Assembly (NCBI GenBank): GCA_012295275.1
Contig: CM022665.1
Coordinates: 42,532,001-42,596,000, forward strand
Length of the DNA: 64,000 nt
Reading direction: 5' to 3'
From: Chrysomallon squamiferum
Lineage: Eukaryota; Animalia; Mollusca
Made by a program: the position numbers and the translations under genes. Within the stretch, counting starts at the first letter, position 1, and every line of letters begins with the position of its first letter. The notes beneath the pieces are model-generated. The model was not told the DNA's origin. It made no database searches and saw only the letters and a list, made by a program, of their open reading frames with translations. Positions 3,301-61,527 of this stretch are shown here, one piece after another.

Positions 3301-5149
3301 TATTCCATTACCAAAAAGTTTCAAGTACTATTTTGCATACATTTTGATTTCAGATTTACCACATTAGACATACATACCTTTTGACTGTTTCAAGACTGAT
3401 CTGAAACAAATTTTCCAGGTTACTTATAAATAATTTTAACTCACCTTGCATTTATTCTGTCAATATCATGATAGTTTTCTTGGTCAAGCTCCATCGCCAC
3501 GGAGACAACAGCCTGTACACGTTCCTCATAGGCGTTGATGTCAGTCTCGATGGCTTCATGTTTCTTTGTGGCTGCTTCCACGGCCGCTAAGTCGCGTCCA
3601 AAGTTGTCCTGAGACACGAGACGCTGATTTTCACTCAGCCAGGTTTCACGCATGCCAGCTTTTCTGTCAAATCGAGCTGCAAGCTGTTCCAGTTTCTCTT
3701 GTCTGGAATAAAAAAATAAATAAAATAAAATAAATACATAAATAAATAAATGCATAAACTGAAGCTTTTTTTGCAAACAAAACTGAAACTGCATCTAATC
3801 TTGTGTATACCTCGACATATCAAAAAAATAAATAAATAAATAAATTTGTGAACTGACAAACACTGAATAAAATAAATTTAAAATACATTTGTTTATTCCT
3901 TAATATAATAAAAATATATAAAACCTTGCAAAAGTTCTGCAAAGTTTCCCAAAGAAGTCATTCCAGTGCTATTTTCAGCACATCATAAAAATCCCTGTTA
4001 TATCTGTAATTCAACATAACACACCTTCCACAAAATTGGTTTTCCAGTGAAGAATAAAAAAAAACGCAATTTATAAATTCAGAAAATAATATAATCATAG
4101 TACAGCAACATATTTTAATTATTAATAACCAACAGCATCTGACTTAATTGAAGATGCCATGGGGTCGATAATCTGACATTATAAAACTATAAAGACTTTT
4201 ACCTGATCAGTTCTTCTCGGAGCGCAAGCTCTCTTTCATGTTCAGCTTTTTCCAGTTTTTCCCAAGCTTTGTTTATATCTGAAAGCATTTTCCCTTCTTT
4301 TGGAAAGTATGGCCGCTGGTTGTTGGCACGCATTTTACTCTGCAGGGTGAACAGAAGAATCTCAAGGTTGCCCTTCTCGTCAAATCTGAAAATGAAACAC
4401 ATTTAATTATTAAAATATTCTTTTAATTTTATAATACTATATTTCTGTGACTTTTTAAATCATTATTCTTAGGGAAATAATTCCCATAATGTGTTAATAA
4501 AGTGTTTTATTTTATTTTTGACAACAAAACTTACTTGGGAGGTTTTTCTACAACACGGTAGGTGCTAAAAGCTGCTAGTTGTTGTTGTACACCAGTGAGG
4601 GAGTTGGCAAACTGTCGGTCATTCAGAATGACAATGGTCTGCTCAATCCATTCCAACAGATCTGATGTCAAACTCTCATACTCATCTACCATCTTTTCTG
4701 ACTCCAGTGTGTTGTCAATCACCTAAAACAAGACAACAAAATAATGTTAGTTTGTTATAATTATTGCAATAAAATAACTTTCACAAAAATAATCAATAAA
4801 TAAATATAACAATATTAAACTAATCAGTCATGTAAAATCATAAATATAAAACAAATATAGAATTTTTTCATATATACATTTTTTTGAAAACTGTCCAGTG
4901 ATGTTTGGGCATTACTGTAATAAATAAAAATCATTACAAAATGCTTTGATGGTCTTTTTATTTTGTTATAGTTAATAGAACTGTATTCTAACCGTTTATA
5001 CAGATTCAGTCAGTTAACAATCTGTTACATCCAGAAGATGATATCATTCACATTATGATTTTGGCAATAGATATACAACATAAAAAACCAACCCAGAAGA
5101 TAAACAATTTTAATTTTATATATATCTAGACATACAGACACAGATGCAG

Positions 5150-5180
<31 letters not shown>

Positions 5181-34073: not shown

Positions 34074-34155
34074 TTATGTACTGACTGGACAAACGTTTGG
34101 ATCTTTGCAGCAATAGTAATGGACAATAATCCCATTTGGATATCTTGCAAATGCA
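34074..34155 (-). CDS. VPS39: VPS39 last coding exon (exon 25)
   Basis: ttcag|(S)[29 protein letters not shown]. Confidence 0.94.
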
Positions 34156-37100: not shown

Positions 37101-38675
37101 AAATATAATGAAAACAATATTAAGTAAAGAATGTCAAAAAAAAAAAAAAAAATAATAATAATAAAAGAGAAATTTGTTTGGAAGTACATATCATGATCTA
37201 TTTAATTCTAAATAATCAAGATTGTTATTTGAAATGGACTAAAAATATGAAAGCTTCAAAATGGTATCTGGCTTTGTCTTTATTTAAAGTATTTTAGAAA
37301 ATTTATCAACAACAGAACATTAAAAAAAAAAAATAATAATAAAAAAACAAAACAAAAAATAAATAAGTAAAAATGTAAAAATCTTAATAAATAAATAAAT
37401 AAATAAATAAATGATTAATAAGTTTTAACAGTACAATATAAATATACTTTATTTAATTCCTGTCTTCAGAAAGTTACTTAAACAATCTTGACAGGTGCAA
37501 TTGTTTGGCAGCCATTTCACATACTTTAGTTTAAAATACTCTGAAACCAATCAGGAAAAATAAATCACTCTTAAAACAAAAAAAATAAAAAATAAAAAAA
37601 AGACAAAAAAAAAAAAGAAGAAAAGAAGGCAGGAAAAAATTATGTTTGAAATACATGTACTCTGAACTGCATGATTTGAGATATTTAAAACTCACAGGCA
37701 GGTACAGGCTTGAACAATTTGACTGAACTATGTTACGGGTTAAAGTTCACAGATTTATAAGGTCTGTCCATGGACTGCATGCTTAAACATACTTAAACAG
37801 TTTGTCTGATGGAAGTGTGTTAAAAACCACATACTTATGGTAGTTTGCTTGAACGATGGCAAAGTGACATGTAAAATATAGATTTTTGGGTGGTTGGTTT
37901 TTTTTGAAGGCTATAATTAAGTTATCTGACATAAAACAGCTGATGATAGAAAAATTAATCAATGTGTTATGTGGAAATTTGTTTTTATTCTGAATATACA
38001 AAAACAACAAGAAATAATCATTTGTCTAGTGTTTTTTTCTTCATATTATGATCTGTTTGATTTTAAATGACTAACATCTTTACTTTCCAAACATCTAAAA
38101 AGATGAAATCTTCAGCTGTTTGGCTGTGGACTGCCTTCATCTTTATTTTAAATATTTTAGAACATTTATCAACTACTGAACATTTAATAAATAATAAAAA
38201 AAAATAATAAAAACAAAAATAAATAAATAAAATAGATCAATAAATAAATAAATAAAATAAAAATAAAATAAAACCAAATAAATAAATAAATAAAAAGAAA
38301 AGAAAAAAACAAGATTAATAAACTTTAACTGTACAATATACATAAACTTTATTTAATTTCTGACAGTTATATGCCTTCACTACAGAAAGACACTAAAACA
38401 TATCTTGACAGGTGGAATTCTTTGGCAGTTACTTGACTTTCTTTATCTGTAGTCTGTAATAATCTCAACCCAACACGGAAAATAAATCACTCAAAATAAA
38501 AAATAAAAATTAAACAAATTAAGAAAAATGTAGACAGGACAAACAGTTATTTAAAATTATGTGTTCTTTGAATTGTTTGTTTTAAACTAGTCTAAGAAGA
38601 AATGGCTAAACAGGTGCAGGAAATGTTCTATTTTTGAATTGTGCTTTTTTATTTTTATCATTTATTTATTTATTA

Positions 38676-38707
<32 letters not shown>

Positions 38708-41700
38708 TAGTAACAGTATTACATAATGTTTTTTTTTTTTTAAAGAATAATAACAACAAATAATAGTAATAATAATAAAATATATTTTAGTAATTATCAA
38801 ATGTTTTTTAAAAAATTCAGTTATAATGGTTTTGAACACACACACACACAGATTTCTGTTTATCAATTTTGATACATTTTTAAAAATTATCATCATTAAT
38901 ACAGTGACAAAAAATGTATTGTCTGCATCCTGTTAAATAACCGCAAACCGATGGAACTGAAATAACACAGGAAACATAATACTGCCCCCACCCCTTTCTG
39001 ACACGCTGTTAAAACCTCACTTCACTATTTTTACAATTTCAGAGAACGTCTGCCAGGATCTGTTTCTCTAACATGATTTATATAAACATACATGCTGCCT
39101 TTTCCAAGCCAGAATGACCTCTGACATTTGACCTGAAATGGTCAGCTGGAGTTGGCAGGGGCAGAGGTATGATAACCCAGCAAGACCACTGCTGGGAAAT
39201 TTGATATTTGATATATGGTGGGTCAACCCCGATTAAAGGAATGTTTGGCAAAAAACATTCTTTTCTTATCTTTTGTAGACTCTAAATGTTATTACTGGTG
39301 TGGTTTTTTAAAACAAAAATAATGGTCTTTATTATTATTTTATTTTTTTGGTTGTCAAAACACATCTGGATGTCACTTTTGAGGATGGAATAGAATGAAT
39401 GTTTAATGACGTTCCAGTAAGTTTTAATATTAATAGTTATTATGTAGCTGTCAAAAGTTTCTTGAATAATAATGATTTGAGAGATGAAATCAATTCACTT
39501 GGCTTTTTTTATTATTATTTATTTACATATTGGCAGCATCAGATCTTTTATATATCTATCTTGTATTGAAGAGGAAGCACAAATCACAGCCTTTACATAT
39601 AAATCTGCTGAGACAGATTTTATTAGAATAGTCTTTAGTCCTGGTAAAGAAAACAGAAAGTTCCAGCTGTAGAAATTATTCTTTTATTAAGTAATTGTCA
39701 GCAAAAGTCAAATTAGACAAACTGTTTATCCTAAATTTGATATAAAAATTAAAAAAACCCAGTAACATTGTTGTTATTGTTCTTAGTATTCATAATGATA
39801 CTGATGATGACAATGATTATTATTATTATTATTGATGATGATGATTGTTATTATTATTATTGATGATGATGATGATGACAGTGATGATTGTTATTTTCAT
39901 TATTAGCAGTAGTTGTAGTAATAATGAATACAATAAAACTGATCTAAAACATAATGGCAAGACCAGGATTTCAGAACTGGGAGATAACCTTTACAATGGT
40001 GGAGATATTATTTTCAAAATGAACCTAATTTCATCATGATGAAAAGAAACATCTGCCATCAAAAAAAAAAAAAATCTGACAACACCACCAGAACAGCATG
40101 CACAGAATGCAATTCTCTGGACTCCTAGAAAACTGCCATTGAAATCATCACTGGTTGTTTTCTGATGTTATAATATGAATTTTGTTAAAGCATTTCTGTT
40201 AAAACTGACTGTAATGCCTTTGATAAATGATCAGTGTAGAAATCCATGCTGATTAAAGTCTGGTGCACTTTTACAAGATGCATGCAAGAAGATAATTGTA
40301 AATAATTGCTCCATTAAGATACGAGGGATGGAGGTAATTTTATTAAATAAAACAGCAGGAGAAGAGTTCTTCAGGAAATGTTAGAAGTTTTAAAAATTAC
40401 AACCAGACACACCCTGGACAGGTACACTAACTCCTCTCTTTTAACACACAAACACATAAATTAACAACAGACACACACACACACACACAACAACAACAAC
40501 AACAACATAAAAAACATACATTTTTAACATGCAATTTTATGTCAATATTCAAACACACACACACACATACAAAAAAAAATATATATATAAAAAAATAATA
40601 GTAATAATAAGAATTTTAAAAAAGGAAAACAAAATAAAAAAATAAAAGCAAAACAAAAGAAAACAAAGCATACAAACATAAACAAAGCCTGTTCTGACAA
40701 AAGGTCAAACTTCTGACATCCATGTTACTGATGGCCTGTTACCCATTATCCCAACATCCCAGTGTTTCAACAGGCCAGTATTAACAAATACCATTTCTGT
40801 ACACACACACACATACACTAACTCATCTCTTTCTCATTTACCTCTCTCTCTCTCTCTTATCTGGATAATTACAGAATTATGAAAGCTGCCAACATGTCTG
40901 AAGTGGAGTTCACTTATATAAATGAAGTTCTCCAAATTTTAATATTCCTTCTTTCACAGTCTCTCCAAAGCTTCTTATACTAAACCTAATTTAGGTTTTT
41001 AAAACTTGACAAGCTGCCAGTGTTTAACCATGTCCCTCATGATGAAAATTCACTGATAAAAGTACACATAATCGGTTATTGTCAAATTATTAAATATAGA
41101 TAGCTAGACGGGCAAGAAGATGTAGAATATGGAAAAGAATTTCATAAAAACATAAATGTTTTATCTGCATTCTGACAAAAAAAACAACATCAAAATTTGT
41201 GTCAAAATTTTATCGATATTTTATAGTTATTCACTTAGTTCTCAAGGATGAGTTGGAAGTCTGAGGTAGTTGTTTGTTGATTAAAATAACTCATTTATTA
41301 TTCATTATCTCAATATGCAACCCGACACTCAAAACAGTTCACTTTAATTAATTTAGTCCACATCCAGTCCAGAAATTACATTTTAAATCAGGAATTTCAC
41401 GAAACTGTGAGATAGATCATTTTTACAATAGTAATTTAGTTTTTGTTTGTATTTTTATGTTTTAATACAGTCTTTCTTCCACTTCAAGGAACAGAATTTG
41501 TTTTAAAATTTTCTTTGATGTTCAATATAAAAATTATTTTCTGACAAAATTTTCTGGCAGTGTAAAGGAAATAATTTATTGACCAATGACATGTTTTCTT
41601 TTCAAAGAAAATACTTTAAAAATGCAAGTGTGTTTTGAGAAAAACAGGTTTGATAGACAATGCTGTTAGAAAATGTTTATTATTCAAGCAAGTTCAAACA

Positions 41701-43130
41701 AAAACATACAAGTTTACATAAATAAATAAAGAAAGAAAAGGAAGCTTTAGCTAATTAAAAATCACCTAAAAAAAACTAATTTAAAATCTGAATTACTAAT
41801 TCATCCAAGCCCCAAAAAAGAAAATGAAATTTTTATCTCAGAATGAATTAATAGTTAAAAAAACAACAACATCCCAGTAACAACAGATGCAACTTTTCAG
41901 CCCACACTGCAGTACCTAATATCCTATAAAATATCAGTGTCATCAAAACTGCATAAACATCTCACTGAATCAAAATGTAAGTACTGCTTATCTAATACAG
42001 ATCACAGCACATGGTTTAACCAGGCATGAAATCATTATGTACTATGACATATCAGTTTAAACAGTTCTACTGTGTAAACCGTTCTTTCCAATCACGATGA
42101 AACCGCCCTCTTTGTTATTTTATCTTTCAGTGCATCATTAGAATGGAATTTGTTTATCACAGACTTCATTTTTGGAGTAAGAATTAGAATATTGTGTGTT
42201 AAAATATAGCAATAGTCATGAAAGTATTTTGGAGAGAGAAAAAAAAAAATCTAAATACTATATTGTATGTAAATATTCCATAAATAAAACATGATGAATT
42301 GAAAACCAGTATTCTTACAATTTATGAATTTAGCTAGACTATTTAAATGTAAATGTTTTAAGAAGCCTCTCTTTTCTAATTTTATTTTAATTTCTTAAAT
42401 TTTTAAAATATTTTTTTTTGTATTTGACTTGAACACCATTAACCTTAGATATACCTTTGAGAACAGGAAGTCTAAATTAAAATATCCTTAATGTATAAAA
42501 TAAAAGTCTGTTTCAAAAATGTGTATGTGAAACCATATGCATTATGTCATGTCTTAAACCTGAATTCTGAAGAAACATTCGTGTAAGAATGTGAATGCAA
42601 ATATACGAATGCTGCTTAGGAAAATGTTTTTTTTTTATTATTCCTTGAACAGAAATACTAGGCCTGACTGCTGTAATAAATAAAACATTCAGACAATGTC
42701 TTTGAAGATTCGAATGTAGGCATTAATGTGTTGGATAATAAAATAAGCTACAAAGCTAGCCAGACATCTTTATGAAGGAATGATTCCAAAGCAGTTCATG
42801 ATGAATTGAAAACTGCTTATTAAATAATGAATATAAATGTGTAATAGCGTTTGGGTGTGTATATGCATGTGTGAATATGAACGCATTAGATTTGTATATG
42901 CAAGAATGTGTGTGTGCATATGTCTGTGCATGTTTTGTGTTTGTATCCAAGACTGCACATTAATGTGTTTTTTAATATAAGAATAACATAACTATATACA
43001 TACATGCATATATATATATAAATCTATAACTATATATATATATATCTTATATCAATACATATCTATATCTATATATATATATATATATATATAGATATAT
43101 ATATAGTTTTACATGTGTGTGTGTGTATAT

Positions 43131-43190
<60 letters not shown>

Positions 43191-46100
43191 TTATGTGCAT
43201 ATATTGACAGACGACAGCTAGATAGATAGACTGTGTGTGTGTGACACACATGCAAATGCATATACACAAATATGTACATACATACAGTGATATGAATGAA
43301 AACTTTCAAGCCATTAACAAATCGTCTATTTGAAATTATTAATAAAAAAAAACCACTGGAATATTTTAACACAATGAACCAACATAGCTGATGAAATAAT
43401 AAACAAAAATCAGTGAAAAGTTTTAACACATCACTATGTAACAGTAGAAAAGTGGACAGCTAAGCCACTATTCTGTATAATTATCCTGACAAAAACAACA
43501 ACTTATTAGCAGCAATTTGCTTCCTCCGGGGACCCTCTGAAAGGTCAAGCCACACCAGTATAATGGAGAAAGCGTAATTGTTTTCAAAGGTTTGAAGTTC
43601 AGAGAAAATTATATCCAGTGCCGAATGTTATTACTGAATGAAATGTTAAAGGAAAAGGCAGCAGGAAACAGAGTTTATCAAGTGTTTTATCACTGAAATA
43701 AACTAAAAAAAAAAAAAAAAATAAAATAAAAAGAAGAAAAAATATATATAAAAATAAATAAAAATTAATAATAATAAAAAATAAATAAATAATACAAAAT
43801 ATTAAAAACAAATTAGTAGATGTGATTTCATATATAAAATAAAACAAAAAAAACCACCAGTAATTATCGTAATTTCCAGCTGGGTGTTACAGTTATGAAG
43901 TATGAATCATACAGATAATATAAACAGAAGTATTAACAGATCATATTATTACTTTTCTCACTCACTCAGTGGCCAATGTTGACAGTGTAAATATCATTAT
44001 TAATGACAAATGGCTGTAGAGTTTTTATTAAGTTGTTTTTTATCAGTATAAATAAACATTAAACATGATTTTATAGCAGAAAATAATTATGATAATAACC
44101 CAAAAGTATATTATGACTTTATTAATCAAAAAAGATAATAAATTTTTGTTGTTTATTTTTGTATATTAGAAAGAAATTGAGTTTACTAAAAATTTTTTTT
44201 TTAAAAATTGAAAAAATAAAATAATAATAATAACAATAACAATAACATAGAAAGAAAGAAAGAAAAAAAAGAAAAAACTGTGAAATTACAGATTAATAAG
44301 GAAAGACAATGGAATTTGTAAAAGGTAACTTGTTATAATAATTTAGAAGGAGATTAATGTTATTCAAATATATAGATACCAGTAGACATAGTAGACAGAC
44401 AGACAGATTGTTATACAGATGTCAAGAGATAGAATAAAGAGAGAGATAGACAGACAGATAGGCAATTAGATAGATAGATAAGTAAATCAGAGATCTTCAT
44501 ACCAAGACACAATCATATACAGGCAGAAATAGCTAAACAGACAGGCAGACAGATTTTGAAAAAAGATTAAACAGATTTAACTGACAGTGAAAGTTAAATA
44601 TTCTAATATAAAATATCAACATGTAAAGGATGAAATTTTGAACTCTAAACCTATCATACAGATATTATGTTTGCTCTTCTAAACAGATTGTTTATATCAC
44701 ATCTTATATTCTGCTAAACTGGAAGTATCAAATATACGACACCTCTGAATGTCACTGACCATACTGTGTAATATATCTGATACCCACGTTTTCCTCTGTT
44801 AATTCAACACCCAGATTAACCTTTTTCTATGCCAAGACATGTGCATTACCGGATTTATTCATGATTAATTCTATTCATAGGACATGTGACAAATAAATGT
44901 ATCTCCAACAGCTATGTGATACGTGCAACCTACTTTTCTTTTGTATATGATGACATTTCCACAAGGTCATTTAAAGTGTAAAAAGATACTTTGGTTGAAA
45001 GTACTTACACATTACACAGTTAACAAGTTTTTTTGTATTTTTATTTTCTGTATGTACAAACACAAATCTTCTGTAAAAAATTAGAAAAAAACTGTTTAAG
45101 TGTCCAGATAAAGTTGATTAATTACAGTTACAGTTTTTATTACATCAACTAACAGAACTATTCTTTGTGTGTGCATGTGTGGCTGTGCAAGTGTGTCATT
45201 TATTTGCTATGTATTTATATGTAAATACACACAGATACACACAGATACACACAGATACACACAGATACACACATAAACACAAACATACCATCATACATAC
45301 ACATACACATAGCATATTTATATATACACATATAAAGGTACTTAAAATTTATTATATATATTATATGAATTATTTTTCAATAAAATAGACAAGACACCAA
45401 AATAAACAGAACTGTCAAGAAAAATATAAATAAGAGACATATTGCTACCAGGTGGCAAGAGAAACTCACAGCATCTGTAAATCAAAATACATAAAACCTC
45501 GTAACAGGCATAGGTGTGCACATTTAAATGTTCCAGTATTTACACAGAAAAAGCACACTGAAATATTCTAATACTAAAATATTTACATAGCGAAAAAGCA
45601 CACTGAAATATTTATAGAGAAAAAGCACACTGAAATATTTATATAGAAAACGCACATTGAAATATTTATATAGAAGAAGCACATTTAAATATTTAATTTC
45701 CAGAATACTTCTATCATAACACTGTTCAAGCACGCATGCCATGGACACATTCTCAGATTCTAGCAGACAGGTGAGCCTGGAGCAGGGAACACCACAAGAG
45801 TGGTCGTGCATTATTTATTTGATGTTAAAGTTTAAACTCTGGGGCTTGTGTCTCCCACCTTTGTTTCTTTGAAGTCCAGCAAAACATGGTACCCATGTGT
45901 TACTAATAGCCATGTGTTTGTAACACAACACTAGGCAGTGTTCATTAAGTGAGGATTGTGTTGGTCTTAACCAAACATTTTTTCCCCTTACAAAGCTAAT
46001 TATCAGACATTAGCTCCACAATGAGGAAACTTTCTACCATGCAGGGAAAGTGTTAGTAAGTGCTGAACATGTTACTAATAGATAAGAAACACGTGTGTAG

Positions 46101-48021
46101 TTCCCTCCCTTGATTTCTTTATATTTCTCACATCTCATATCCTCCATTGTTTATTTCTGTATTTTTATATACCCATCATCATCTCATTATTTTTAACAAA
46201 TTTCTAATTCTCTCCCTTGATTTATTTATTCCTCTCATTCTTCCTCTCATTGTTTAGCCTTCTTTCTCTATTTGATTACTTATTTACCCATCTCATCCCT
46301 AGACTGACTTCCTTTCATTATTTCTTAACAAATGTGTGTAATTCTCTCCCTTGATTTATTTATATCTCTCACATCACATATTTTTTCTCTCGTTCCTCTC
46401 ATTCTCTAACATTCTTTCTGTCTTTGATTACTTATTTACCCACCTCATCCCCATCACAGACTCACTTTCTTTATCTCTTAACAAACAGATGTGTGTAGTT
46501 CCCTCCCTTGATTTATTTATATCTCTTACATTTCATATTTTTTTCTCTTTTTCTAACATTCTTTCTGTCTTTGATTACTCATTTACCCATCTCCTCCCCA
46601 TCAGAGACTCACTTTCTTTCATTATCTCTTTCAAACAGATTGGACTTAGTACATGTCTATAAATAGTGGTTTTATCTGTTTTTATTTGGTATCTTTACTT
46701 AGATTTCTTCCATTTAAATTTTAAACTTTTAAAAATTAATAAAATAACCATTTACCAGCAAAAGTAACTATTACCTTGAATATTCAACATATTTAATAAT
46801 TAATAATTTAACATTTGCAAATATCAATTTGGTAAATTTTCATACCATAAAAGTAAATGAAAAATGAATCACTCATAAGCCTTCTTAAAAAGAATAAAAA
46901 AACAACAACAAATTTTTTTTATTAACACCAAACCCATTCAGTAATTAGTGATTTTAAATTTTATTTTAATATCAGGTAAGTCTGAAATTACTTAATCATG
47001 CAATGGATTCAAATTTAATATTGTAATATTCATAGAAAGAAACAAAATGTACAATAATTCAAGGGAAGTAATCTGCAGACAAAATCAGTGATTTCCTCAA
47101 GTACTTTTTTTTTTTTTTAAACTTTAATATTTCAAGTGAAATAAATCAGCTGTTTTAAAACTGAAATTCTTTTTCAACTATTATGGAAACGAAAAGCTAA
47201 ATTTTTCTATGTAATCCAAAAAAATTGGCACACTTTCCTTTTGTAGCCGTAAAAAGTTAACTGAAAGTGTAAGTATTTTTTCTTTCAGATTTGAAACATT
47301 TGTAAAATTTGGTCAGTTGTACTTAAATATATGAGGTTGTATTTGTTTTATTCGTTGTATTTTGTGTAGGTATATATGTCTGTCTATGTGTGTATGTGCG
47401 TGCATCTATATTTTGTGTTTTTATAGTACATTCAGCTTTTGACCATATACTTTTAAAGATGCCAGTAAATATAAAAATAATTTTAATATATAAAATACAT
47501 GTACTATGAATAATCATCAAAAATTCAAATTCATCTGACTTTACACATTTATGTTCGTGACATAAATACATGCAGTCTTTTGCACACATTCATACATGTG
47601 AAAAAACACAGAAACACAGCAAGTATAATAAAAGTAAGAACAAAGGTAAAGCTTACCTGCAGATTTTCGGCATACAGCATACTTTTAAGTATCTGATCTT
47701 GACGATGTTGGGAAGCTCTGTGTTCCATGACATTTTCCAGGTACAACAGAATTTCTTGCACTTTTGTTGATGATGGTAACAATTCCAGTGCCTGTAATAA
47801 AGTTTGAAAATATTTTTAAAATTTTGTTTTATTTTATGTCAGAGATGTTTGATTGTTATGTTTCTGATTTTTTATCTGTAATGATGAAATAAAAATAACA
47901 ACATGATAATAATAATAATAATAATAGTAATATATACATACTTATATAGATATATATATATATATATTTTAAATGTATTAAAGAAAAGGAAATTAAACAG
48001 TGCCCGTGTTCAAAACAGCAA

Positions 48022-48061
<40 letters not shown>

Positions 48062-51000
48062 TTTACAAAATAATAAAAACAAATACCAAAATTAAATACC
48101 TAAAATAAATCTTGACAATAAAAAAAAAAAAAAAAAAGGAAAAAAAAAAGAAAAAGAAAAAGAAAAATATAGAATTAGAATAAGTACTATATATTATTTT
48201 TAAATTACAAAAAGAAATATGTCATTAATAGAAATGACCCCCAAAAATTCTAAATTAAAAATAAAGAACATTAGTTTAAGTTTCTAAATAGTGAAAAATT
48301 AAAATAAGTAAATAAATCAATAAATCAAAAATCTAAAATAACTTACTTAATTTTTAAATAAATTTAAGCTAATGAATTACATAATATTTTAGTTTCTAAA
48401 AATATTGAAAAAGAAAACTGTACTTATCTAAACAATAAATATAAATTAAAAAAATAATATTTAAATTTCTGAATTACAGATACTAATAAAATAAACATAA
48501 ATAAATTTATGAAAATTGATATAAATGACACATATTTTTTATTTAAAAAAAAAAGATGAATTACAAACAAAAAGCATAATATTTAAATTTCTAAACGAAA
48601 AAGAAAAAGCAAAAATATTTGAATGAATAATATTATAAACAATTTAAAATTAAATCAAAATTGATATTTACATAATCATGTCAGGAAATAATAATAAAAA
48701 ATAAATGAATAAATCAAAACAATACTAAATAGAAAGTAAAATAATTAAATAATTATAAGCTGACAATCAGACAAAATTAAATAAAAACTTCTAAGTGTCT
48801 GAACAATCTTAAACTTTGTCACTTAAAAATATATATATAAGTAAATAATAATAAAACAAATTAATAATGAAAAAAAATAAAAAACTCAAAATATATGAAC
48901 AAAAAATTTAAATATTTAATATCCAAACAATACAAAACTTATTTTAGAAGTAAAATATTAAATTAATTACAAAACACTGAATTCAGTTTAACAGTTAAAG
49001 TATTAGCCTTACTTGAGTAGTTTCTATTTTCCATGCATGGTCTTCTAGTAACCTGAGAGCTGCGTCCTTGTCAGGCTTTGCTTTCATTGTCTGACTGACA
49101 CCAATCCCCAGCACACTGGGCTCCGGAGGCTGCAGATACATCTTCAGTAGATTTGTGTAAACCTAGGTTTGAAAACAGAAAGTTTCACTCTCATATATCT
49201 TCAGTAGATTTGTGTAAACCTAGGTTTGAAAACAGAAAGTTTCACTCTCATATATCTTCAGCAGATTTGTGTAAACCTAGGTTTGAAAACAGAAAATGTC
49301 ACTCTCATACATCTTTAGTAGATTCATGTAAACCTAGGTTTGAAAACAGAAAATTTAACTCTCATACATCTTTAGTAGATTTGTGTAAACCTAGGTTTGA
49401 AAACAGAAAGTTTCACTCTCATATATCTTTAGTAGATTCATGTAAACCTAGGTTTGAAAACAGAAAGTTTCACTCTCATATATCTTCAGTAGATTTGTGT
49501 AAACCTAGGTTTGAAAACAGAAAGTTTAACTCTCATACATCTTCAGCAGATGTGTGTAAACCTAGGTTTGAAAACAGAAAGTTTCACTCTCATATATCTT
49601 CAGCAGATGTGTGTAAACCTAGGTTTGAAAACAGAAAGTTTCACTCTCATATATCTTCAGCAGATTTGTGTAAACCTAGGTTTGAAAACAGAAAGTTTAA
49701 CTCCCATATATCTTCAGCAGATGTGTGTAAACCTAGGTTTGAAAACAGAAAGTTTCACTCTCATATATCTTCAGCAGATTCGTGTAAACCTAGGTTTGAA
49801 AATAGAAAGTTTCACTCTCATATATCTTCAGTAGATTCGTGTAAACCTAGGTTTGAAAACAGAAAGTTTCACTCTCATACATCTTCAGTAGATACATGTA
49901 AACCTAGGTTTGAAAACAAAGTTTAACTCCCATATATCTTCAGTAGATTCGTTTAAACCTAGGTTTGAAAACAGAAAGTTTCATTCTCAAACATCTTCAG
50001 TAGATTCATGTAAACCTAGGTTTGAAAAGAGAAAATGTCACTCTCATACATCTTTAGTAGATTCATGTAAACCTAAGTTTGAAAACAGAAAGTTTAACTC
50101 CCATACAACTTTGGTAGATTTGTGTAAACCTAGGTTTGAAAACAGAAAGTTTAACTCCCATACAACTTTGGTAGATTTGTGTAAACCTAGGTTTGAAAAC
50201 AGAAAGTTTCATTCTCATACATCTTCAGTAGATGTGTGTAAACCTAGGTTTGAAACAGAAAATTTCATCCAAAAAGAAGATACACCTCAATGCATAAATA
50301 TCTATAAAATATTTTAAAATCAGAATTATATTTATCTAAAACATAGAAAAATAACTTTAAAAAATAAAAAGGCTGCCATCTGTGATAAAAAAAAATATAG
50401 ATACACACACATGCACATAAATTCAGTATATCCAAAATAAAATAATCAATCAATGAAATAACTAAACAAAATGCAAACTGACAAATATAATATTATGAAA
50501 AAAATATACTTACATCTTTGTTGCCTTCTTTATCTTTATCAAAATTTTTCTTACAGTAACTAAATTAAAAAAAAATAAAAATTTAAATCAGTGACAATAA
50601 TAAATATAATCAGTTTATGTTAATTTAACTTTTACATATCTTAGTTTTTCATTGACCAAAAAATAAATATAAAAATAATAATAATAATAATAATTTTTGT
50701 TACACTTATAAAAACCAAAACCCCCCATAAATAATAATAATTAAAGAAAGAAAGAAAGAAAAAAGAATATATATAAATTACAATGTATGAAAACAAAAAT
50801 AATAAAATGATAAAAATAACTCAATAAATTGTAGGCTTTGTAACATTCAAATAAAAAATAATTTTTCAATGAAACCAAAAAAATATCAACAAAAAAAATG
50901 TAGAATTGTTTTAAGTTTATATTTTCTTACTAACTGAAGTATGTTATAAATTATTTTATTTTTGGGGACTCACTCTTCTGCTAAAGCTGGATCGTGTAAT

Positions 51001-54000
51001 ACGTGAATGTAAATTCCTAACGCTTGTTCATGACGACCCAGTCTTCCTAGTAATATGGCTCGCTCTTCAAAAAATTCTATAAAATAAACAAGAATAATGA
51101 ACTGAAACTGAACTTTTTAATTATATTATTCCAAAATAACTATTTATTTTCCTTAAATTTGTATTTTATAAATTCAGTTTCAGGTAATCCGAATGCCTGC
51201 TTATAAAAATTAATTTATAAATTAATTAGCGAATGATGCAATAATTAATATCAATTTTTTTAATCAGATTTGGAATTATTAGTTTTTAAATTATGTATTT
51301 GTGTATGTATGCATGTGTCAAACAAATCAACACAATAACAGATAAATACTCATGAAGGATTCAGAACAGCCATGTAAGAAATATTATTTTTGTATAATAC
51401 TGTGTAATAAAAATAAACTGAAAAAAGATTCTAAAATTTAAAAATATTTTTATACTGACTGTCTAAAGGAAATCGGGTGAGAAGCTGTTCTGGGACGTAG
51501 AACTTGGACTCGTGCAGGAAGTTAATCAGTTTGCGACGATACTCGCCAAGTTCACCAGGCTCACAACCTGCCTTTTGTGGAGGATGTCCTGTATATATTT
51601 CAAATAAAAACCTGATATTACTCTAGCCTTTAATTTAACAGCCATCGGTTTGAATTTTATTTGTTTTACATTTACTAGTATGATAAATATATTAAACTTT
51701 GATAATCAAACAAAACTTTAATAAAATATATTTAGTTATCTGAATAATATAAAACTTTGGCAAAATAAATTTAAAAAATAAAACAAAATAAAAAAATTAA
51801 TTTACAAATATTAAATATGAATGACATTAAAGAAGGATAGATCATATTTAGAAAAGAAAATGTTTAGATATTTAAATAACATATTTAAAAAAAAATTTCA
51901 AAACTAAACTTTATATTTCTAAATCATAACAAATAAAGTATTTATTTAATATTAAGAATAATAAGTGCAATTTTTATATATTTATTGTGATTATTTATTT
52001 ATTAATTTTCTTTTTGTTTTTAATAAACATTTTTTTGTTTAGTATACATTTATATATATTTTAAAGACATTCATTTTTTAATTTCTGTTTAATATAAATA
52101 AATAAAATTATAATGAAAAAGGGATTTATGTATTTAAAGAATAAAACATTTCCAAATCCTAATTTAAAATTAATAAAAACAATTTGTTTTTCGTATACTT
52201 GTTTTTTTTAATTTTTTATTGCAGGCATTTACTTAATATTTAAAATATATGTTTTTTATGTAATTATTAAATATCAAAAAACAATTTTTTGTTTCTTCTT
52301 TTTTCATCAATTTATTTAATATTAATAAAAATCTGTTCATATTTAATATTAATAAAAGTGTAAGGTTTTGGTTGGGTTTTTTTTACAACTTATTATACAT
52401 AATTATTTAATATTAATAAAATATATGTTTTATCATGTAGTTATAAATTTTAAATTAATATTATTAACTATAGAAACAAAATTGTACATAATGACTTATA
52501 GTTAATAAAATAAGTGTATTTAATTACTTAACGTTAATTTTATATTGCAATACTAAAAGGTAATATTTACCTTCAGGAAGAGCCAGCAGATATTCCTCCA
52601 TAGGTCCTTGCACCTGTTCCCTATACAGGTGTACTAATCTGTTATGGAATTCAGGTGTTTTGTCTTGCCATTGATATATCACATGCTCCTAAATAATAAA
52701 TAATAATAATAAACAAAGAGATAACACAAGACAAAAATAAAAATAAAGTAAAGTGACGTGATGCACAATACAACACAACATAAAACAAAACAAAATAATG
52801 TAATTAAATTAAATTAAAAATTGAAATAAATATTAGAAGAATCATTTTTAAAATTCTCAAATAAACAAAAAAGCCAAGCATCATTTGTAAAATAAAATTT
52901 TAAAATATTTTTTTTATTCACAGTTATTATTATATATAAAACAAAAATATTCTAAATATTATTTCAAAATTAATGATTTTTACATTACAGTTTATGCATG
53001 AGATAATGTGGAATATTAAAAAAATTAAGTAAATATTTTAACAAGTCTCAACATCTTACCAAATATGGAATGGCTAATTCTTTGTCAATTTTTTCTAAGT
53101 ATTCCAGAACCTTGTCTCTCGGAAGGTTTTCAACTTCGGGAAGATCTTCTGTAAATATCTGGAAAAAATAACAAAACAATAAAATAAAAAAAATAAATAA
53201 TTGCATAAATCTGCTTAACATTAATACAACTAAGTGATATTTATTTAATATTGACAAATAATAATAATAATAATAATAATAAAATAATAATAAAGCACAA
53301 AAAAGAGTAGTCATAAGGCAAATCTTTTTGTATAAATCATCTTTGTGCAGTTTATACATACTGACCTAACCCTGTTATTTAACCTTCTTACTGTATTATT
53401 AACAAAGGTGATTTAAATAAAAATATGTATAATTTCAAGTATATATTTAAGTATCATTATAAATGAATGGATTTTAATACTGAATCAAATTTAAATCCTT
53501 TCATTCATTCATTTCTTACTTTGAGTCCCTCTTCTGGATATCTTCTAAGAACCCACTCAGAATATTCCAATATGAGATCAAGATGTTCAGATCCTAAACA
53601 TTTAAAAATAAAATAAAATATTTTTCAATAACATGAGATTAAATTTTTTTTTAAATTATTACAATATATTATGTTATTATCAATTTTAACAATAATAATA
53701 ATATTTAAAAAACAAAACAACTTTTGAAAAAAAAAAAATGAATTTTCGTTTTTTGTCAAGGTCATAATTTTAAAATTTATGTAAAAATAAAAGAACTGCT
53801 TTTTTATTTTTATTATTAATTTTTTAAAATTTGTATATATAGCAACATTTGGTTATTCAAAATGTTAAAGAATATAAATATATTAAATATAATGAAGTCA
53901 TAGTAGCATCATTTTAAAAAAAATGTATGTTGATAAATACAGACAAAGAGAAAAAGACAAAATAAATGATTTTATTTATCAATTTTAGTTCTAAATAATC

Positions 54001-57000
54001 CTCTTCCTGTAAGTGTATGTTACAGTTTAAAAATTATATAATGTTAAAATCCATGTAGCATAAAACTTGGTGCCCAATTATGCTTTTTCCCATTCCAACC
54101 CCATACTTATGACTTTAATATTAAAGATGTTAAGGGAGAGTCCATAAAACAGACCTAGCTCTGATTACATAAAAAAATACTGGATATTCTCTGAAAAAAA
54201 AAACAGTTAAAAATATCTTGAGCCATTACAAAATTCACTAGGACTGTCCTTAAAGCAAAGAGAATATTAAATAAAGGAAGTGAAAGCTAACCTAGATGTT
54301 GTAAGTACTGTACTGTTCGGTCGTGACCTTTCAGTGGAGAATCAGGTCTTGCTGCTTGTTTTGTTAACAGGTTCAGAGCTGTAAATAAAATACAACAGAA
54401 ATCCTCATTAATTTGTTCAAAACAACGTAATATCATAATAAAAAAACCCAGTTAAAATGAAAAAAAATCAGAAATTGCTAAGTGCATATTACTATACTTA
54501 TTCATATTTTAAGTAATAAACAAATATATTTTATAAGTTAATGAATTAAAGAATTAATTTATACAAATATTCAAATAATTATGAATTTTTATTTTCATGG
54601 TATATATAAATAAATGTATTTTATAAGTTAATGAATTCCAGAATTAATTTACACGAATATACAAGTAATGTTAAATTAAAAGTACTAATCCACAATGGAT
54701 GGATTACTGATAACTCAGCTTAGAAACAAATTGAACAAATTATCTGAATAAAAAAATTTGCTTTATTTTAGCAAAACTCTTATGAACCATTATTTACAAT
54801 GTATCAATAAAATTCATATTATTTCTTTGATAACATATCCTTTATAGCCATTCATACAGAAAAACTAAGTTAAGAAACTGTCAACTGAGTAGCATAGGTT
54901 GAAAATCTGGTTTAACAATTTTAGTTTCATTTTTTATGTAAACCTTTCATTTCATAGAGAATTATCAACTGAGTTAAAAATAGGATTCAGCAGTTTACTT
55001 AATTTTCTTAAAAAATAGGCTTACAACGAAAGGTATCAACTAAATCACACAAGTCAAAAATCAGATTTACAAACTTACCTTTTTGATGTAAACCTTTCTT
55101 TTCATAGAGAATTATCATCTGTGTAACGTAAGTTAAAAATCTGTTACTCACCTTTTTGATGTAAACCTTTCTTTTCATACAGAATTATCATCAGAGTAAC
55201 GTAAGTTAAAAATCTGTTACTCACCTTTTTGATGTAAACCTTTCTTTTCATAGAGAATTATCATCTGTGTAACGTAAGTTAAAAATCTGTTACTCACCTT
55301 TTTGATGTAAACCTTTCTTTTCATACAGAATTATCATCAGAGTAACGTAAGTTAAAAATCTGTTACTCACCTTTTTGATGTAAACCTTTCTTTTCATAGA
55401 GAATTATCATCAGAGTAACATAGGTTAAAAATCTGTTACTCACCTTTTTGATGTAAACCTTTCTTTTCATAGAGAATTATCATCTGAGTAACATAGGTTA
55501 AAAATCTGTTACTCACCTTTTTGATGTAAACCTTTCTTTTCATAGAGAATTATCATCAGAGTAACGTCAGTTAAAAATCTGTTACTCACCTTTTTGATGT
55601 AAACCTTTCTTTTCATACAGAATGATCAACTCCACATATTTCTCCTTCTTCCTCAGCACTCTCTCACTCTCCTCTACGTGACAGTTGTTGTCTTTCAGTC
55701 TCAGCAAGGGAGCCACCAGAGCATCATTTGTCTGAAACATAATCTTCCTTTAATTAGCAATCTAATTATTTTACATGAAAGTTACAGAAACTGTTATAGG
55801 GTTGCAAAGATACTGTGTTTTTTTTAAATACATCTTCAATAAACAGAGCACACAAAACCACTCTGGGCTGTCTTGGCACATTTTGGGGAACGCTTCATTT
55901 AAAAGGTAAATGTATTTAATTAGCAGTTCAAAATATTTTTATACTGAAATATATTTTCATTTAAATATTACAGAACAAACAATAGATAGATAGATAGACA
56001 GACAGATAAATACTAATTTTTTTATCTTTTGATTCTCAAGTATATGCAGAAAAATACATAATAAAAAAAAAAAAAAACCAAAGACAAAACAGTAAAGCAT
56101 CCACTGAAGGATTTTGAACTCAGAATCCTTTGTTTTTGAGACACACCTGCAGATAACATTTCAGTAACGTGGTGTCTATGATCTGACTGAGCTGTTTCTT
56201 GGACCTGATTGTCATGTTGCCTTCCACAATGGCTGTGGTTTCCATTTCTTTGTTGATGTCCTTTATCAGCTGGTTTCTTTTCTGAAAATTAAATTTAAGA
56301 CTTTATAATCCTCATCATCATACTCTCTCTCTCTCTCTCTATTTATATATATCGAAGATAGAAAAAATATTTAGTTATATTTACTGATCACGAGTGAATG
56401 ATTTGTTGTATCTTGGCATTTGGATGTTACACATTTTTATTATTCTTCAAAATACACTGAAGGAAAAATAAAATTCATTACCACACATATATATACTGAT
56501 GTGTCTGCAAATAAACAACAAAACACACAGACACACCTCTGTACCATCCTACACATACAAATGTACTCGCACACACACATGCATGCACACACACACACAC
56601 ACACACACACAGAGGTAAGGTTACAGTCATACCTCAGTGAGATAATCTATGAGAGATAAAAATCCTTTCTCTAACTCGGCTCCTTCTAAACTTGGCAGTT
56701 TGTTTGGATATTCCAGCTGATTCCTGAATTCCTGAGGCAGAAGATTTGGATATAACCCAATTACATGACTAGGATCTGTTCAATAAACAAATAAACAAAT
56801 AAACATACAAACAAACAACAAATACATGAATAAATAAATAAATAAATGAGGATGCTGTTAATAATTGTTCTGAAATTTACATCTTAAAATTAATTTTATT
56901 ATTAAGAATACAGTTTTTATTTCTTTTATTGTCATTATTATTTGTTTATTATTATAATTACAGTAATTTTTTTAAATCCTAGATTCTATTAAAATTTCAT

Positions 57001-57983
57001 TCAATAACTTTTTATACTTAAGTTAAAAATAGTTAAATTGTTACAAAAAATAGTGTAAGTATTATTATTTTTTTTTTTTTGCTTTGTGTGGGTTGATATC
57101 TTCATGATGTGAATGCAGCACACTCAATTGATTTAAGCAGCGGCGTATTTTAAAAACATATATTTTTGTTACAAATTTTCAAAATCATATTTTTTATCTT
57201 TTTGAAATTTCTTATGCTGACCATTGAACAGAAACAGTTAAAATAAAAATCATTTAGATTCACACCTGTTCCTAACTGATCAAAGATCTTCATTGATTCA
57301 TCAAACTTGTGTTCACAGAACAGGTGAAAAGCGTACAGATTTTGTATGCTTCGCGTTCTTTTTCTTTTCTCCGATTCTGGTTCATCTGTCATTTCCTGCA
57401 GAGAGAAAGAAAGCAAAAATAAATAAATAAATAAATAAAAAAATATATATATAAAAAAGTTATATTGAATGTGTATATCCTTTATATTGCTGTTACCAGT
57501 GAAAAATATTCTTTACATTGTACCAGTGAAAAAAAAAGTTTAAACTTTCTGGTTTTACTGGCATCTCTGAGTAACACAATAAATAAATCCTATTCTTGAC
57601 TTATATTTTCACCTTGCAAGGATGACTAAGTGTCTTCTTCTCTCACATACATTTTCATGTTTTAATAAATTCAAACAGTTTAACATGACAAATTTTCTCA
57701 AATGGATTGCCTATTTATTTATATAATAAGACCAACAAAATAAAATATTATGACATTAATACAAAGATAAATAGATGCACCCAAGGAAATAAAAGATAAA
57801 AGACAAAAGTACTTACAACTAAGTGGAGAGCCAGTTTAAACTCTTGTGATTTCAGAAGCTGTCTAATCTGAACTGAGATGGGCATCAAAGCAAGACGCCA
57901 GACAAAGTTCTGTGAAGCAACGTACACAAAGCCGCTGAAAATTAGTGAATGCTTATTTTAACAAACACTCAAACTTTTTTTTT

Positions 57984-58026
<43 letters not shown>

Positions 58027-60339
58027 AGCAGTTTTTGGGAATCAAACACTGCCTTTTTCGCGCAAAGATAAAATAGCAGAAGAAATTTTAATACAATATT
58101 CACAACACCTAAAACAATTCAGAACAGAATTTTTATTTATAAATTTTTAAATTAGGTTTGTTAGTAACAAATAAAAATAACAAATATTTTTAAATTTTAT
58201 CAGATATACACATAGATGCATCCATGCACACAAATATATACAACACACACACACACACAATCACTTTCATCAAACTGTCATAAACAAATGATAATACAGA
58301 ATAAAAAAAGTCATTTAATGTATCATTTACACAGTGTATTTTAATTCACAAACATAGTCACACATTAAATACAATTTATTCTTACCTCCCTTGACAAATA
58401 AATTTCGGTTTCGGCAGCTCAATGCTCTGGATAAGAAGGTTTGGTTCTATCGTTCTTATTTCAACATATTTGGGCAAAATTGCTATCACATAGGGAGGGT
58501 TGTGCTCTAAAATAAAAGTAACATCCATCTCAATAAAGTACATAGTTCTGTTATCATTACTGTAAAGGTTTAATGAGGGTTAATATACATTTCACCACAG
58601 CTGATGAGTTTTGGAATAAACAAGAAAAAGTCTATCAAAGCACCGAGTGACATCTTAATAGAAATGACATATAATGTGTATGATACAGTATGATGAAGAA
58701 GATAAACTGATAGACTAATGTCTCATGGCAATGGCTGACCATTAAGTATGTGTCTTTTTCCCATACTGTTTTCACTGCTGTGAGTACAAGACATATCATT
58801 AAAAATTGAATAAAAAGGCTATCATCCTTTACTGAACAATTTAAATTAAAATTTAGAAAGGATACATTCAGTAACTAGTAATATTTACCTTTGGATTTTG
58901 GGGGATTTATTTAATACAAAAAAATTATTAAAAACTGTTATTCCAGTAACTACAAAATTATAAATATTTTAATAATTACCAACAGCAACAGGAATATCTG
59001 TCCATTTAATTGGCTCTTTTTGGAATGGTGCTCCTGAAGAGTCAATGAGGATGGACATCTGATCTCTACCGAGAGCCAGTCTTCCATTTGCGAGACTCGA
59101 CACAACGGGCTCGGTCTGCTGGTTCCCGACAGGAAAGAGCTCAGTGAGAGCTCCGTCTTTTACCTGAAACAAAGTAACTCACTGTCATCACAGGTGCAAA
59201 TTTCTGGAATTTCCCTGAAGGTACATTGTCAGCTTTTAATAGTTAATAATAGTAAACAATACACTGTTAATTTTAAACATTATAATGCAGACTTATATTA
59301 GTCATAAATAGGAATGTACAATTTTTTTTTATAGTTGATAATATTGATTTTAAATCTACAATTACTTAATAAACACAAACTATTTTGATTTGAATTAAAG
59401 CTTCTATAAAAGAAATTAATAAAGTAAAATTGTAAATGAATATAAAGAAGTAATATGTTTTTCTATGTAATTCTTTATTTTTAAATTTAATCCATCCATC
59501 ATGGACATAAATTTTGGCATATTTCTGGCAAATAGCTATCCTTTAATTTAATAAGAATGTTCTGTTAAAAGATTGGTATTTGTGAATGAATAAAAAAGGT
59601 AATATATTCCTTGATATAATTTTTGGTTTTTTAAATATATAATTTTGTGATAAATTATTCAATATGTTTAAGGATTTTTTTTTTCTCAATTTGCCAACTG
59701 ACAAAAGTAAATATAATATCTGTTGTATTGAAAAACAGACATACATATGACTTTTATTTATTCATTTAGCATTAATGTTCTTTACTTTGATATCCTCTTT
59801 CATAGTTATAAAAAAAAATGAAATAAAATATTTCAAATTGACCACCATCAATATGATGTTCTTTGTCAAGTTAGGAAATGAAAAAAAAACAAGGAAAAAA
59901 AACAGAATATGAAATTGGATATTGCTGAAGATTTTAACTTGTCAATTCTATTTTTAAAAATCTTTTTTTCCTTCTTGCATTTTTCTTTTTTTTTCATCTT
60001 TCTTGCAATTTAATGTTTTTTCAGGTTTTTATGTTTATTATTAATTTTTTGACTTTCTTAAAAATTTAATTAAAAAATCACAAATATCATAATGTTTTTT
60101 TTTTAATTAACCACTTGTCAAATTTTGTGTGAGTCTGTCATCACAAGATCATGTGAATCATGACTGTGTTTTAGAAGACTATCATAATTAGTGTTATTAA
60201 CACGTACATTGATCATGCAATACTCTCGTTTAAAACCAACACACAGTGAATCTCTTTTCCCTTCAGGATCTGTGCACCAGGCCATTGCTCTTGGGGTATC
60301 ATACAGACTGAGGTCTTTCTGGAAAATAAATTAAATGGT

Positions 60340-60374
<35 letters not shown>

Positions 60375-60505
60375 CAGTGAAGAGTTTTTCAGATAAATAT
60401 AAAATAAATAAATAAACAAACAAAAAGATGTTTGTTGTAAATTTATATTAATTTTATTATTAAGAAAATAGTTTTTATTGCTTTAATATCATACTATTTA
60501 TTATT

Positions 60506-60539
<34 letters not shown>

Positions 60540-61413
60540 ATTCCAATTTTTTATTGTTAATATCAAATTTAAAAATAATATAATATTAAATGTGATTATG
60601 CTTTAATTATGTTAAATATCAAGTGAAAAAGTCAAAACAAATACACCATAATATTTCTTTTTGGACAAAACACTTTTTTATATAAAAATGTAAAACTGCA
60701 TTAATTTAGGAATTTATCATTTAAAACTAAACTGTAAAGAAATAAAGCTAATCACAACAAGTTCATTCTAAATAAAAATGCTTAACAATCATTACTGAAT
60801 TTAAAAAAATAATAAAATAAATGAAATTTGATAACAATTCATAATCGGGTTAATTGTCAGTTTGTTAAAAAAGTATTGAGTTTTACCAGCAGCTCATGGA
60901 AATCTCTGTGTTTCCAGTAAAAAAGCTGGATTCTACGTTTAGACGAGACCCCCAGTCTGAGTTGTGTCTGGCAGTCCCCAGTTTGAGAAGGAATTTTCTG
61001 AGAAATTTACAGAGTAAACGTTACACAAGTCATATGTTATAAAAAAAATAATAATAAATAAAGAAATACAGTAATAAAAGAGTAAATATTAAATAAGTCA
61101 TTAGTGTATTACAAAAAAGAATGAATAAGCAAACAGCTGCAACAGAAATGAAATACGGTTAAAAATTTAAAATCACACCAACAGTACACTAATTCAGAGC
61201 AAACCATTTTGTTTCATTTTTAAAAAGTAGAGTTTAATCTAATTTTTCATATTAAATATTACATTATCAAGTATCTCATTACAGATTTCTTTTTCTTTTG
61301 TGAAGTATAAATATCTGAAATGGAAAATGTAACACTACAACTCACTGACAAGATCAAAATGCATCTTATTACTTTTCATATTTTAAATATTTGAGCAATG
61401 GACAGAATGATTA

Positions 61414-61446
<33 letters not shown>

Positions 61447-61474
61447 AGTGTATGTCTGTATGTAACTGTATTAA

Positions 61475-61527
<53 letters not shown>

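What the first reader, a model, noticed from the sequence alone, without database searches (positions are those of the whole stretch)
49136..50260. Twenty stacked copies of a 3' splice site: a minisatellite built from the intron/exon-22 junction of VPS39
Seen: the 57-bp unit is 30 nt of intron end (pyrimidine tract plus TAG) and the first 27 nt of the real exon (VYTNLLKMY). All 20 copies retain the AG and fill about 80% of this intron. The unit is 19 codons in the exon frame ([18 protein letters not shown]) and its last codon is the TAG of the next acceptor. Use of an upstream copy therefore adds a premature stop (the single 55-bp unit also shifts frame), and only the final, exon-adjacent copy makes VPS39. 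Inference: the spliceosome must bypass 19 near-identical decoys, or the array acts as a copy-number-tunable NMD rheostat on a HOPS subunit. I know of no named system that describes this arrangement.
Basis: partly seen in the sequence, partly recalled or inferred. Interest (0 to 1): 0.85.

Follow-up and report, generated by a model that had tools for sequence, protein, structure and literature searches.

The report
Splice-junction "mirage" repeat in snail VPS39
A 57-base piece spanning an intron end and the start of the next exon of a probable snail's VPS39 gene stands 20 times in a row, yet both assembled transcripts examined contain only the correctly spliced form, so it is likely a tolerated repeat of a kind already named "mirage" in lancelets and known from human genes, not a control switch.

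Summary
In detail: 20 tandem 57-bp copies of a VPS39 intron/exon junction (49136-50267, - strand), each with its AG, fill 82% of the intron. Use of any upstream AG would give an early stop. DNA contigs from two studies carry the array and its rare variants. The arrangement has a name: amphioxus "mirages" (the BflGb6 case is acceptor-type), with donor-type human cases such as F7 and CBS. Spliced contigs from two samples join exon 50559-50514 to one 27-nt block and then the real exon, which is the product of acceptor 49162; contigs cannot show rare isoforms. AG retention is chance-level (P about 0.49), and the stop follows from a phase-0 TAG acceptor. The used acceptor is no stronger than the decoys, so exon definition likely picks it (150-nt exon; others 207 nt or more). 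The same gene has a second, donor-type array (55073-55628). This scan has noted the class before in annelids, a sea urchin and sharks, with up to about 105 copies (unchecked notes). Ordinary; the NMD rheostat is untested and unlikely.

The parts
49136..50267 (-). 57-bp acceptor-type junction minisatellite, 20 AG|GTTTA junctions (19 decoys plus the real acceptor); mean pairwise difference 9%
   Evidence: array contigs in DNA runs X1 and X2
49163..50513 (-). Host intron of VPS39 (1351 nt, GT..AG, phase 0); about 246 nt of unique 5' intron sequence, then the array
   Evidence: joint in X6 and X8 contigs
49013..49162 (-). Real exon (150 nt, 21st in the window), ending in a donor CAA|GTAAGG that scores 9.7 on the local matrix; its first 27 nt form the exon-like part of the unit
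   Evidence: loose-end letters in X6 and X8 match its continuation
50514..50559 (-). Upstream 46-nt exon with donor GAT|GTAAGT
49163..49164 (-). AG of copy 20, the acceptor that gives the mRNA seen; local matrix score 1.8, no higher than the decoys
50244..50267 (-). Intron end of copy 1, joined to unique intron sequence; likely the ancestral acceptor context; best local matrix score (6.7) but not seen used
49159..49170 (.). 12-bp perfect palindrome centred on the junction, present in 19 of 20 copies; predicted to pair between neighbouring copies
49305..50223 (-). Six copies keep a cryptic donor GAT|GTATGA (GT at 50220, 50049, 49880, 49538, 49367, 49310; score 6.2) that could close a 23-nt frameshifting mini-exon; in 10 of 20 copies, including 18 and 19, this G is an A
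   Evidence: use not seen
55073..55628 (-). Second, donor-type junction minisatellite in the same gene: 73-bp unit (about 33 nt exon end plus 40 nt intron start), 8 donors, first at 55589; one decayed copy near 54971-54930
34074..63440 (-). VPS39 (Vam6) gene, 24 exons in the window; the first 24 codons lie outside the window

Best explanation
This is a tandem array of 20 copies of a VPS39 intron/exon junction that likely arose as an ordinary unstable minisatellite and is likely tolerated because the spliceosome still makes the normal mRNA from the last copy. Shown: the array, its unit, the stops, and the normal joined mRNA in two samples. Inferred origin: a 57-bp segment spanning the acceptor was duplicated and then expanded and homogenised by slippage or unequal exchange; a 12-bp palindrome on the junction may have seeded it. 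A duplication that straddles a junction always leaves one whole exon, on the exon-adjacent copy, and pushes the extra copies into the intron, so such arrays can persist where fully exonic ones cannot. Inferred choice of site: exon definition. Only copy 20 is followed by a full 150-nt exon and a strong donor; copies 19, 18 and 17 would give exons of 207, 264 and 321 nt, and the rest up to 1231 nt. Any mis-spliced RNA would carry an early stop and likely be cleared by NMD, as waste rather than regulation.
For: Contigs of X6 (1823 nt, depth 11.7) and X8 (2133 nt, depth 12.4), from two studies, join 50514 to a single 27-nt block; their loose ends then read the continuation of exon 49135-49013. No other joint into the array is listed. 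The X6 array contigs shown (records 17-20) all run through the intronic AG, so they are unspliced. Copy 20 scores 1.8 on a 23-site acceptor matrix, against 1.3-2.8 for copies 2-19 and 6.7 for copy 1, so site strength does not pick it. All 22 internal VPS39 exons are 43-184 nt. Predicted structure does not single it out: all 20 AGs have an unpaired probability of 0.15 or less in the two long-span settings. There is no sign of selection: 17 of 57 columns vary, and 3 of 11 distinct changes in the exon-like part are synonymous against 22% expected. Neighbouring copies are more alike (4.0 differences) than the mean (5.1). A mirror-image donor array sits in the same gene. Published mirages are described as not disturbing splicing.
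Against: Only contigs were available. They drop rare variants, NMD targets are scarce, and 149 pieces and 63 loose ends were not shown, so low-level use of copies 18-19 is not excluded. In human 6-16 and CBS, two neighbouring pseudo-sites are used, so arrays of this kind can leak. The used acceptor scores above only 2 of 23 true acceptors, and six copies carry a usable-looking internal donor. X6 holds unspliced array contigs (summed depth 13.7 at 50212), which could be pre-mRNA, DNA or retained intron. Exon definition was not tested here; the matrices are crude.
Confidence: 0.8

Rival explanations
1. Leaky but unselected splicing VNTR: copies 19 and 18, or 23-nt mini-exons closed by the internal GAT|GTATGA donor, take a measurable share of splicing, so array length or make-up shifts VPS39 dosage as a mildly harmful side effect.
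For: Copies 19 and 18 give exons of 207 and 264 nt with equal acceptor scores. The internal donor scores 6.2, above 7 of 35 true donors, and equals the +1 to +6 letters of a real VPS39 donor. Human 6-16 and CBS use two extra pseudo-sites. Repeat length affects splicing at many human loci (passages).
Against: No such joint among the contigs listed for X6 or X8; mirages are reported not to give aberrant mRNA.
Confidence: 0.12
2. Selected copy-number-tunable NMD rheostat on a HOPS subunit: the array is kept because diverting transcripts to decay sets VPS39 level.
For: Every upstream AG gives an early stop. The array and its rare variants are shared between samples of two studies.
Against: The stop is automatic: a phase-0 TAG acceptor puts TAG in frame in any unit of 3n bases, and other lengths shift frame. 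AG retention is chance-level. No poison isoform was seen. The same layout recurs at a donor in this gene, and per unchecked notes in unrelated housekeeping genes of other animals, which points to a mutational process.
Confidence: 0.05
3. Recursive (ratchet) splicing: each AG|GT junction is used in turn, so the intron is removed in 57-nt steps and the final mRNA is normal.
For: Every acceptor is followed by GT, and the end product would equal the mRNA seen.
Against: The rebuilt donor GAT|GTTTAC scores -1.0, below 34 of 35 true donors, with 3 of 9 matches to the recalled donor consensus. The intron is only 1351 nt.
Confidence: 0.02
4. Assembly artefact.
For: The copy number of 20 rests on one assembly; no contig spans the array.
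Against: X1 and X2 hold many short array contigs with the tandem junction, at a summed depth about 13-38 times that of flanking contigs (not a copy number). Four copy-specific variants occur at shares close to the window's: 89, 21, 5 and 11% in the window; 83, 33, 6 and 10% in X1; 78, 25, 4 and 5% in X2. X2 differs from the window at three nearby intron bases, so it carries a different haplotype; X1 may be the source and is not counted as independent.
Confidence: 0.01

Closest known systems
Amphioxus 'mirage' minisatellites: globin BflGb6 and BflGb9 (PMC3087553; seen: passages and the whole section on mirages; supplements not opened), Adh3, troponin C and PGBD5 (PMC3902484, one passage; the original Adh3 paper, Canestro et al. 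2002, is not held)
   Same: Tandem copies of an intron/exon boundary lying in the intron; BflGb6 repeats the intron 3' end plus the exon start, as here; many copies keep AG/GT; both boundary types occur; normal splicing persists; copy identity 81-100%.
   Different: Gastropod rather than cephalochordate; 20 copies of 57 bp against 3-6 copies of 150-160 bp in BflGb6; length polymorphism and somatic instability not shown here; two arrays of opposite type in one gene.
Human junction VNTRs: F7 IVS7 37-bp, CBS IVS13, interferon-inducible 6-16, LMNB2, PDGF (PMC1557585; seen: abstract, introduction, discussion)
   Same: A minisatellite whose end unit spans the junction repeats the splice site up to 25 times; the exon-adjacent site dominates, and in 6-16 and CBS the next two are also used.
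   Different: These are donor arrays; the finding is an acceptor array (the second array at 55073-55628 is the direct counterpart). The 5'-to-3' scanning model for F7 donors cannot explain use of the last acceptor.
Intron gain by tandem duplication of AG|GT sites (Rogers model; Hellsten et al. 2011, PMC3265369, passages)
   Same: A tandem duplication holding AG|GT; each unit is formally a GT..AG segment.
   Different: Here the duplicated site is an existing acceptor, unique intron sequence lies upstream, and no new intron or exon is seen.
Poison-exon / unproductive splicing coupled to NMD, as in SR-protein genes (recalled, no call)
   Same: A mis-spliced form would carry an early stop upstream of later exon junctions.
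   Different: No poison isoform seen, no conservation shown, no feedback logic for a HOPS subunit.

Membership tests
Mirage / junction-spanning minisatellite | Tandem repeat whose unit spans an exon-intron boundary of the host gene | tested here: met
   19 extra copies of the 40-mer around acceptor 49162; 2 of 72 junction positions scanned have such copies (the 24 spectrin positions come from an unverified exon list)
Mirage / junction-spanning minisatellite | Copies keep the splice signal | tested here: met
   20 of 20 keep TAG; 8 of 8 keep GT in the donor array
Mirage / junction-spanning minisatellite | Normal mRNA is still made from the exon-adjacent copy | tested here: met
   X6 and X8 contigs; main form only
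Mirage / junction-spanning minisatellite | Aberrant transcripts absent or rare | tested here: inconclusive
   none listed, but contigs drop rare forms
Mirage / junction-spanning minisatellite | Length instability between haplotypes or cells | not testable with these tools
   no contig spans the array; summed depth is not a copy number
Mirage / junction-spanning minisatellite | Concerted evolution within the cluster | tested here: inconclusive
   neighbours differ at 4.0 sites against a mean of 5.1; copies 2 and 3 are identical; no formal test
Regulated poison splicing / NMD rheostat | Alternative form carries a premature stop | tested here: met
   19 of 19 upstream units, but this follows from the acceptor's phase
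Regulated poison splicing / NMD rheostat | The poison form is detected in RNA and rises when NMD is blocked | not testable with these tools
   only contigs were served; none showed it
Regulated poison splicing / NMD rheostat | Signals kept by selection | tested here: not met
   AG invariance P about 0.49; 3 of 11 changes synonymous against 22% expected; no genome of a related snail could be read, so cross-species conservation is open
Recursive splicing (ratchet points) | AG followed by a strong rebuilt donor (feature recalled) | tested here: not met
   GAT|GTTTAC scores -1.0, below 34 of 35 true donors

The most novel reading that the evidence does not exclude
The array is a length- and sequence-tunable poison cassette. 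Each unit is a whole acceptor module, six units also carry a donor that closes a 23-nt frameshifting mini-exon, and junction palindromes pair neighbouring copies. Copy number, copy parity and the spread of the donor-killing G-to-A variant would then set the share of VPS39 pre-mRNA sent to decay. With the opposite-type array upstream, one gene would be a natural test bed for how the spliceosome chooses among identical sites at both ends of an intron.
Probability: 0.06. Interest if true: 0.6.

Novelty: new member of a known kind. Interest (0 to 1): 0.2.

Why it matters
As it stands: a clean mollusc example of a little-known repeat class, with acceptor-type and donor-type arrays in one gene. It shows that the site in use need not be the strongest, which suits it for testing exon definition. 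I found no mollusc mirage in the listings of two searches (5 papers; 15 of 96 listed; titles and abstract starts only), which is weak evidence of absence. If copy number did tune VPS39 through NMD, it would be a heritable dial on lysosome-fusion capacity built from a gene's own splice site; nothing here shows that.

Tried and rejected
No whole genome is held for this window, so the genome-wide frequency of such arrays is open. X6 has no cover in the unique intron bins 50282-50485; this is no evidence of absence. Runs X10 and X11 (organism B) hold next to none of the words; no conclusion drawn. RNA structure as the selector: rejected, since the used AG is predicted as paired as the decoys; a single unit folds no better than shuffles (z -1.02), two units do (z -2.66), and the 301-nt end gives z -2.08. 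A 9-mer shared by both arrays' units: 88 of 1000 shuffles give a match of 9 or more, so rejected as chance. Recursive splicing and intron gain: see rivals. Pfam gave no hit for 3 of 5 exons scanned, including the array's exon. A paper search for recalled human VNTR-splicing genes found 0 papers; a search on duplicated 3' splice sites gave nothing I used. Scan notes for this genome (8 shown of 13) and near this place (0) were unrelated.

Full report
Observation. On the minus strand, 49136-50267 is a tandem array of period 57 with 19.9 copies and 92% matches. Splitting at TAG|GTTTA gives 20 junctions from 50243 to 49162; 18 of the 19 upstream units are 57 nt and copy 6 is 55 nt. Each unit is the first 27 nt of the exon followed by a 30-nt intron end with a pyrimidine tract and TAG; a TNA branch-like triplet about 23 nt upstream is visible in the unit (read from the sequence, not tested). 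The array fills 1105 of 1351 nt of the intron. In the exon frame all 19 upstream units hold a stop within 19 codons.

Host gene. Two of five exons scanned hit Pfam Vps39 families. A hand-built 24-exon model reads 863 aa without a stop and aligns at 86% over 859 residues to P0001, named Vam6/Vps39-like of Gigantopelta aegis, the only hit among 7 candidates. The organism is therefore probably a gastropod. The orthologue has no insertion at this junction and has 24 extra N-terminal residues, so the exon is at least the 22nd.

Is it real? Nine of eleven runs listed hold the stretch or part of it, from three studies. Four were laid on 50180-51700, which holds copy 1 and the intron part of copy 2. 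X1 and X2 hold many short contigs across the tandem junction, at a summed depth about 13-38 times that of flanking contigs; the tool warns this is no copy number. Four copy-specific variants have shares of 83, 33, 6 and 10% in X1 and 78, 25, 4 and 5% in X2, against 17, 4, 1 and 2 of 19 copies in the window. X1 matches the window without a difference over 466 nt and may be its source; X2 differs at three intron bases nearby and counts as independent. The array is real; its exact length rests on the one assembly.

Which acceptor is used? X6 (RNA on record) and X8 (labelled 'DNA?', but showing three GT-AG joints) each give one long contig. Each joins exons 51588-51460, 51076-50974 and 50559-50514 to a single 27-nt block, and its loose end then reads the continuation of the real exon. 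That is the product of acceptor 49162. No other joint into the array is listed. The X6 array contigs shown all include the intronic AG, so they are unspliced; their summed depth of 13.7 spread over about 19 copies is about 0.7 per copy against 11.7 for the mRNA. X8's depth there is explained by its mRNA piece alone. Limits: contigs drop rare variants, NMD targets are scarce, and 149 pieces and 63 loose ends were not shown. Unexplained: X8's block differs from copy 1 at 2 letters where the window's exon differs at 1; an allele is the simplest reading, but the letters were not shown.

How the choice is likely made. On a matrix from the 23 other VPS39 acceptors, copy 20 scores 1.8, copies 2-19 score 1.3-2.8 and copy 1 scores 6.7; true sites range from -4.9 to 13.6. 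Strength does not pick the used site. Local folding does not either: all 20 AGs are predicted paired in the long-span settings. What is unique to copy 20 is a full 150-nt exon and a donor scoring 9.7. Copies 19, 18 and 17 would make exons of 207, 264 and 321 nt, while the 22 internal VPS39 exons are 43-184 nt. Exon definition, which PMC1557585 discusses along with poor splicing of unusually large exons, fits; this step is inference. It leaves one or two real competitors rather than 19.

No sign of design. Seventeen of 57 columns vary, so two given columns stay invariant with P about 0.49; 3 of 11 distinct changes in the exon-like part are synonymous against 22% expected. The stop is automatic: at a phase-0 TAG acceptor, a unit of 3n bases puts the TAG in frame, and any other length shifts frame. 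The rebuilt donor needed for recursive splicing scores -1.0, below 34 of 35 true donors.

Features that keep a leak possible. Six copies carry GAT|GTATGA (score 6.2, above 7 of 35 true donors), which could close a 23-nt frameshifting mini-exon; 10 of 20 copies, including 18 and 19, have A in place of that G. One mutation spread by array turnover explains this as well as selection does. A 12-bp perfect palindrome sits on the junction in 19 of 20 copies; 0.7% of 3094 other AGs and none of 22 other VPS39 acceptors have one so long. This was noticed after the fact; it may have seeded the duplication.

A second array. At 55073-55628 a 73-bp unit repeats the end of exon 55731-55590 and the start of the next intron, giving 8 stacked donors; reading past the first meets a stop within three codons. 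These two are the only hits among 72 junction positions scanned. Two opposite arrays in one housekeeping gene suggest a mutational tendency that selection tolerates.

Known systems. [quoted passage not shown] BflGb6 repeats the intron 3' end plus the exon start (6 and 3 units in two haplotypes), and mirages are reported not to disturb splicing (PMC3087553; PMC3902484). Human F7, CBS, 6-16, LMNB2 and PDGF carry donor arrays of up to 25 pseudo-sites; the authentic site dominates and two more are used in 6-16 and CBS (PMC1557585). I met these papers before consulting the scan's notes, which list the same class in annelids, a sea urchin and sharks, with up to about 105 copies (AI notes, not checked here). 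The original Adh3 paper was not available, and supplements with the BflGb6 alignment were not opened.

Verdict. Observation confirmed; a new member of a known kind. The best reading is a tolerated junction minisatellite resolved by exon definition (0.8). A measurable unselected leak is possible (0.12); a selected rheostat is unlikely (0.05). Interest 0.2.

Noticed in passing
window 55073-55628 (- strand): Donor-type junction minisatellite in the same VPS39 gene: 73-bp unit, 8 stacked donors, the last followed by a different intron start; one decayed copy near 54971-54930. A 7-bp inverted repeat in the unit is predicted to pair over donor positions +3 onward, but folding is no better than shuffles (z -1.13).
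   Followed up: partly
window 49159-49170 and 18 further copies: 12-bp perfect palindrome centred on the acceptor junction; predicted to pair between neighbouring copies; possible seed of the amplification.
   Followed up: partly
run X8, piece on window 50217-50241: The spliced contig differs from copy 1 at 2 letters where the window's exon differs at 1; possibly an allele, perhaps shared with array copies by gene conversion; letters not shown.
   Followed up: no
window about 742-10944 (- strand): Exons of what reads as a beta-spectrin gene (name recalled from the translated peptides, no family search) downstream of VPS39; no junction repeats at the 24 positions scanned.
   Followed up: partly
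window 34727-47656: One VPS39 intron is 12,930 nt while the other 22 are 335-1351 nt; it holds a 147-bp, a 27-bp and a 71-bp tandem repeat (46238-46665, 45573-45695, 36595-36749). The 71-bp unit has scattered look-alikes near 37700-37810 and 45720-45780, perhaps a small interspersed element.
   Followed up: no
run X2, window 51248-51450: A strongly diverged haplotype of an intron stretch (31 substitutions and 11 gaps in a 453-nt piece) and a 296-nt skip at 50905-51202 in one DNA contig; allele, paralogue or misjoin not told.
   Followed up: no
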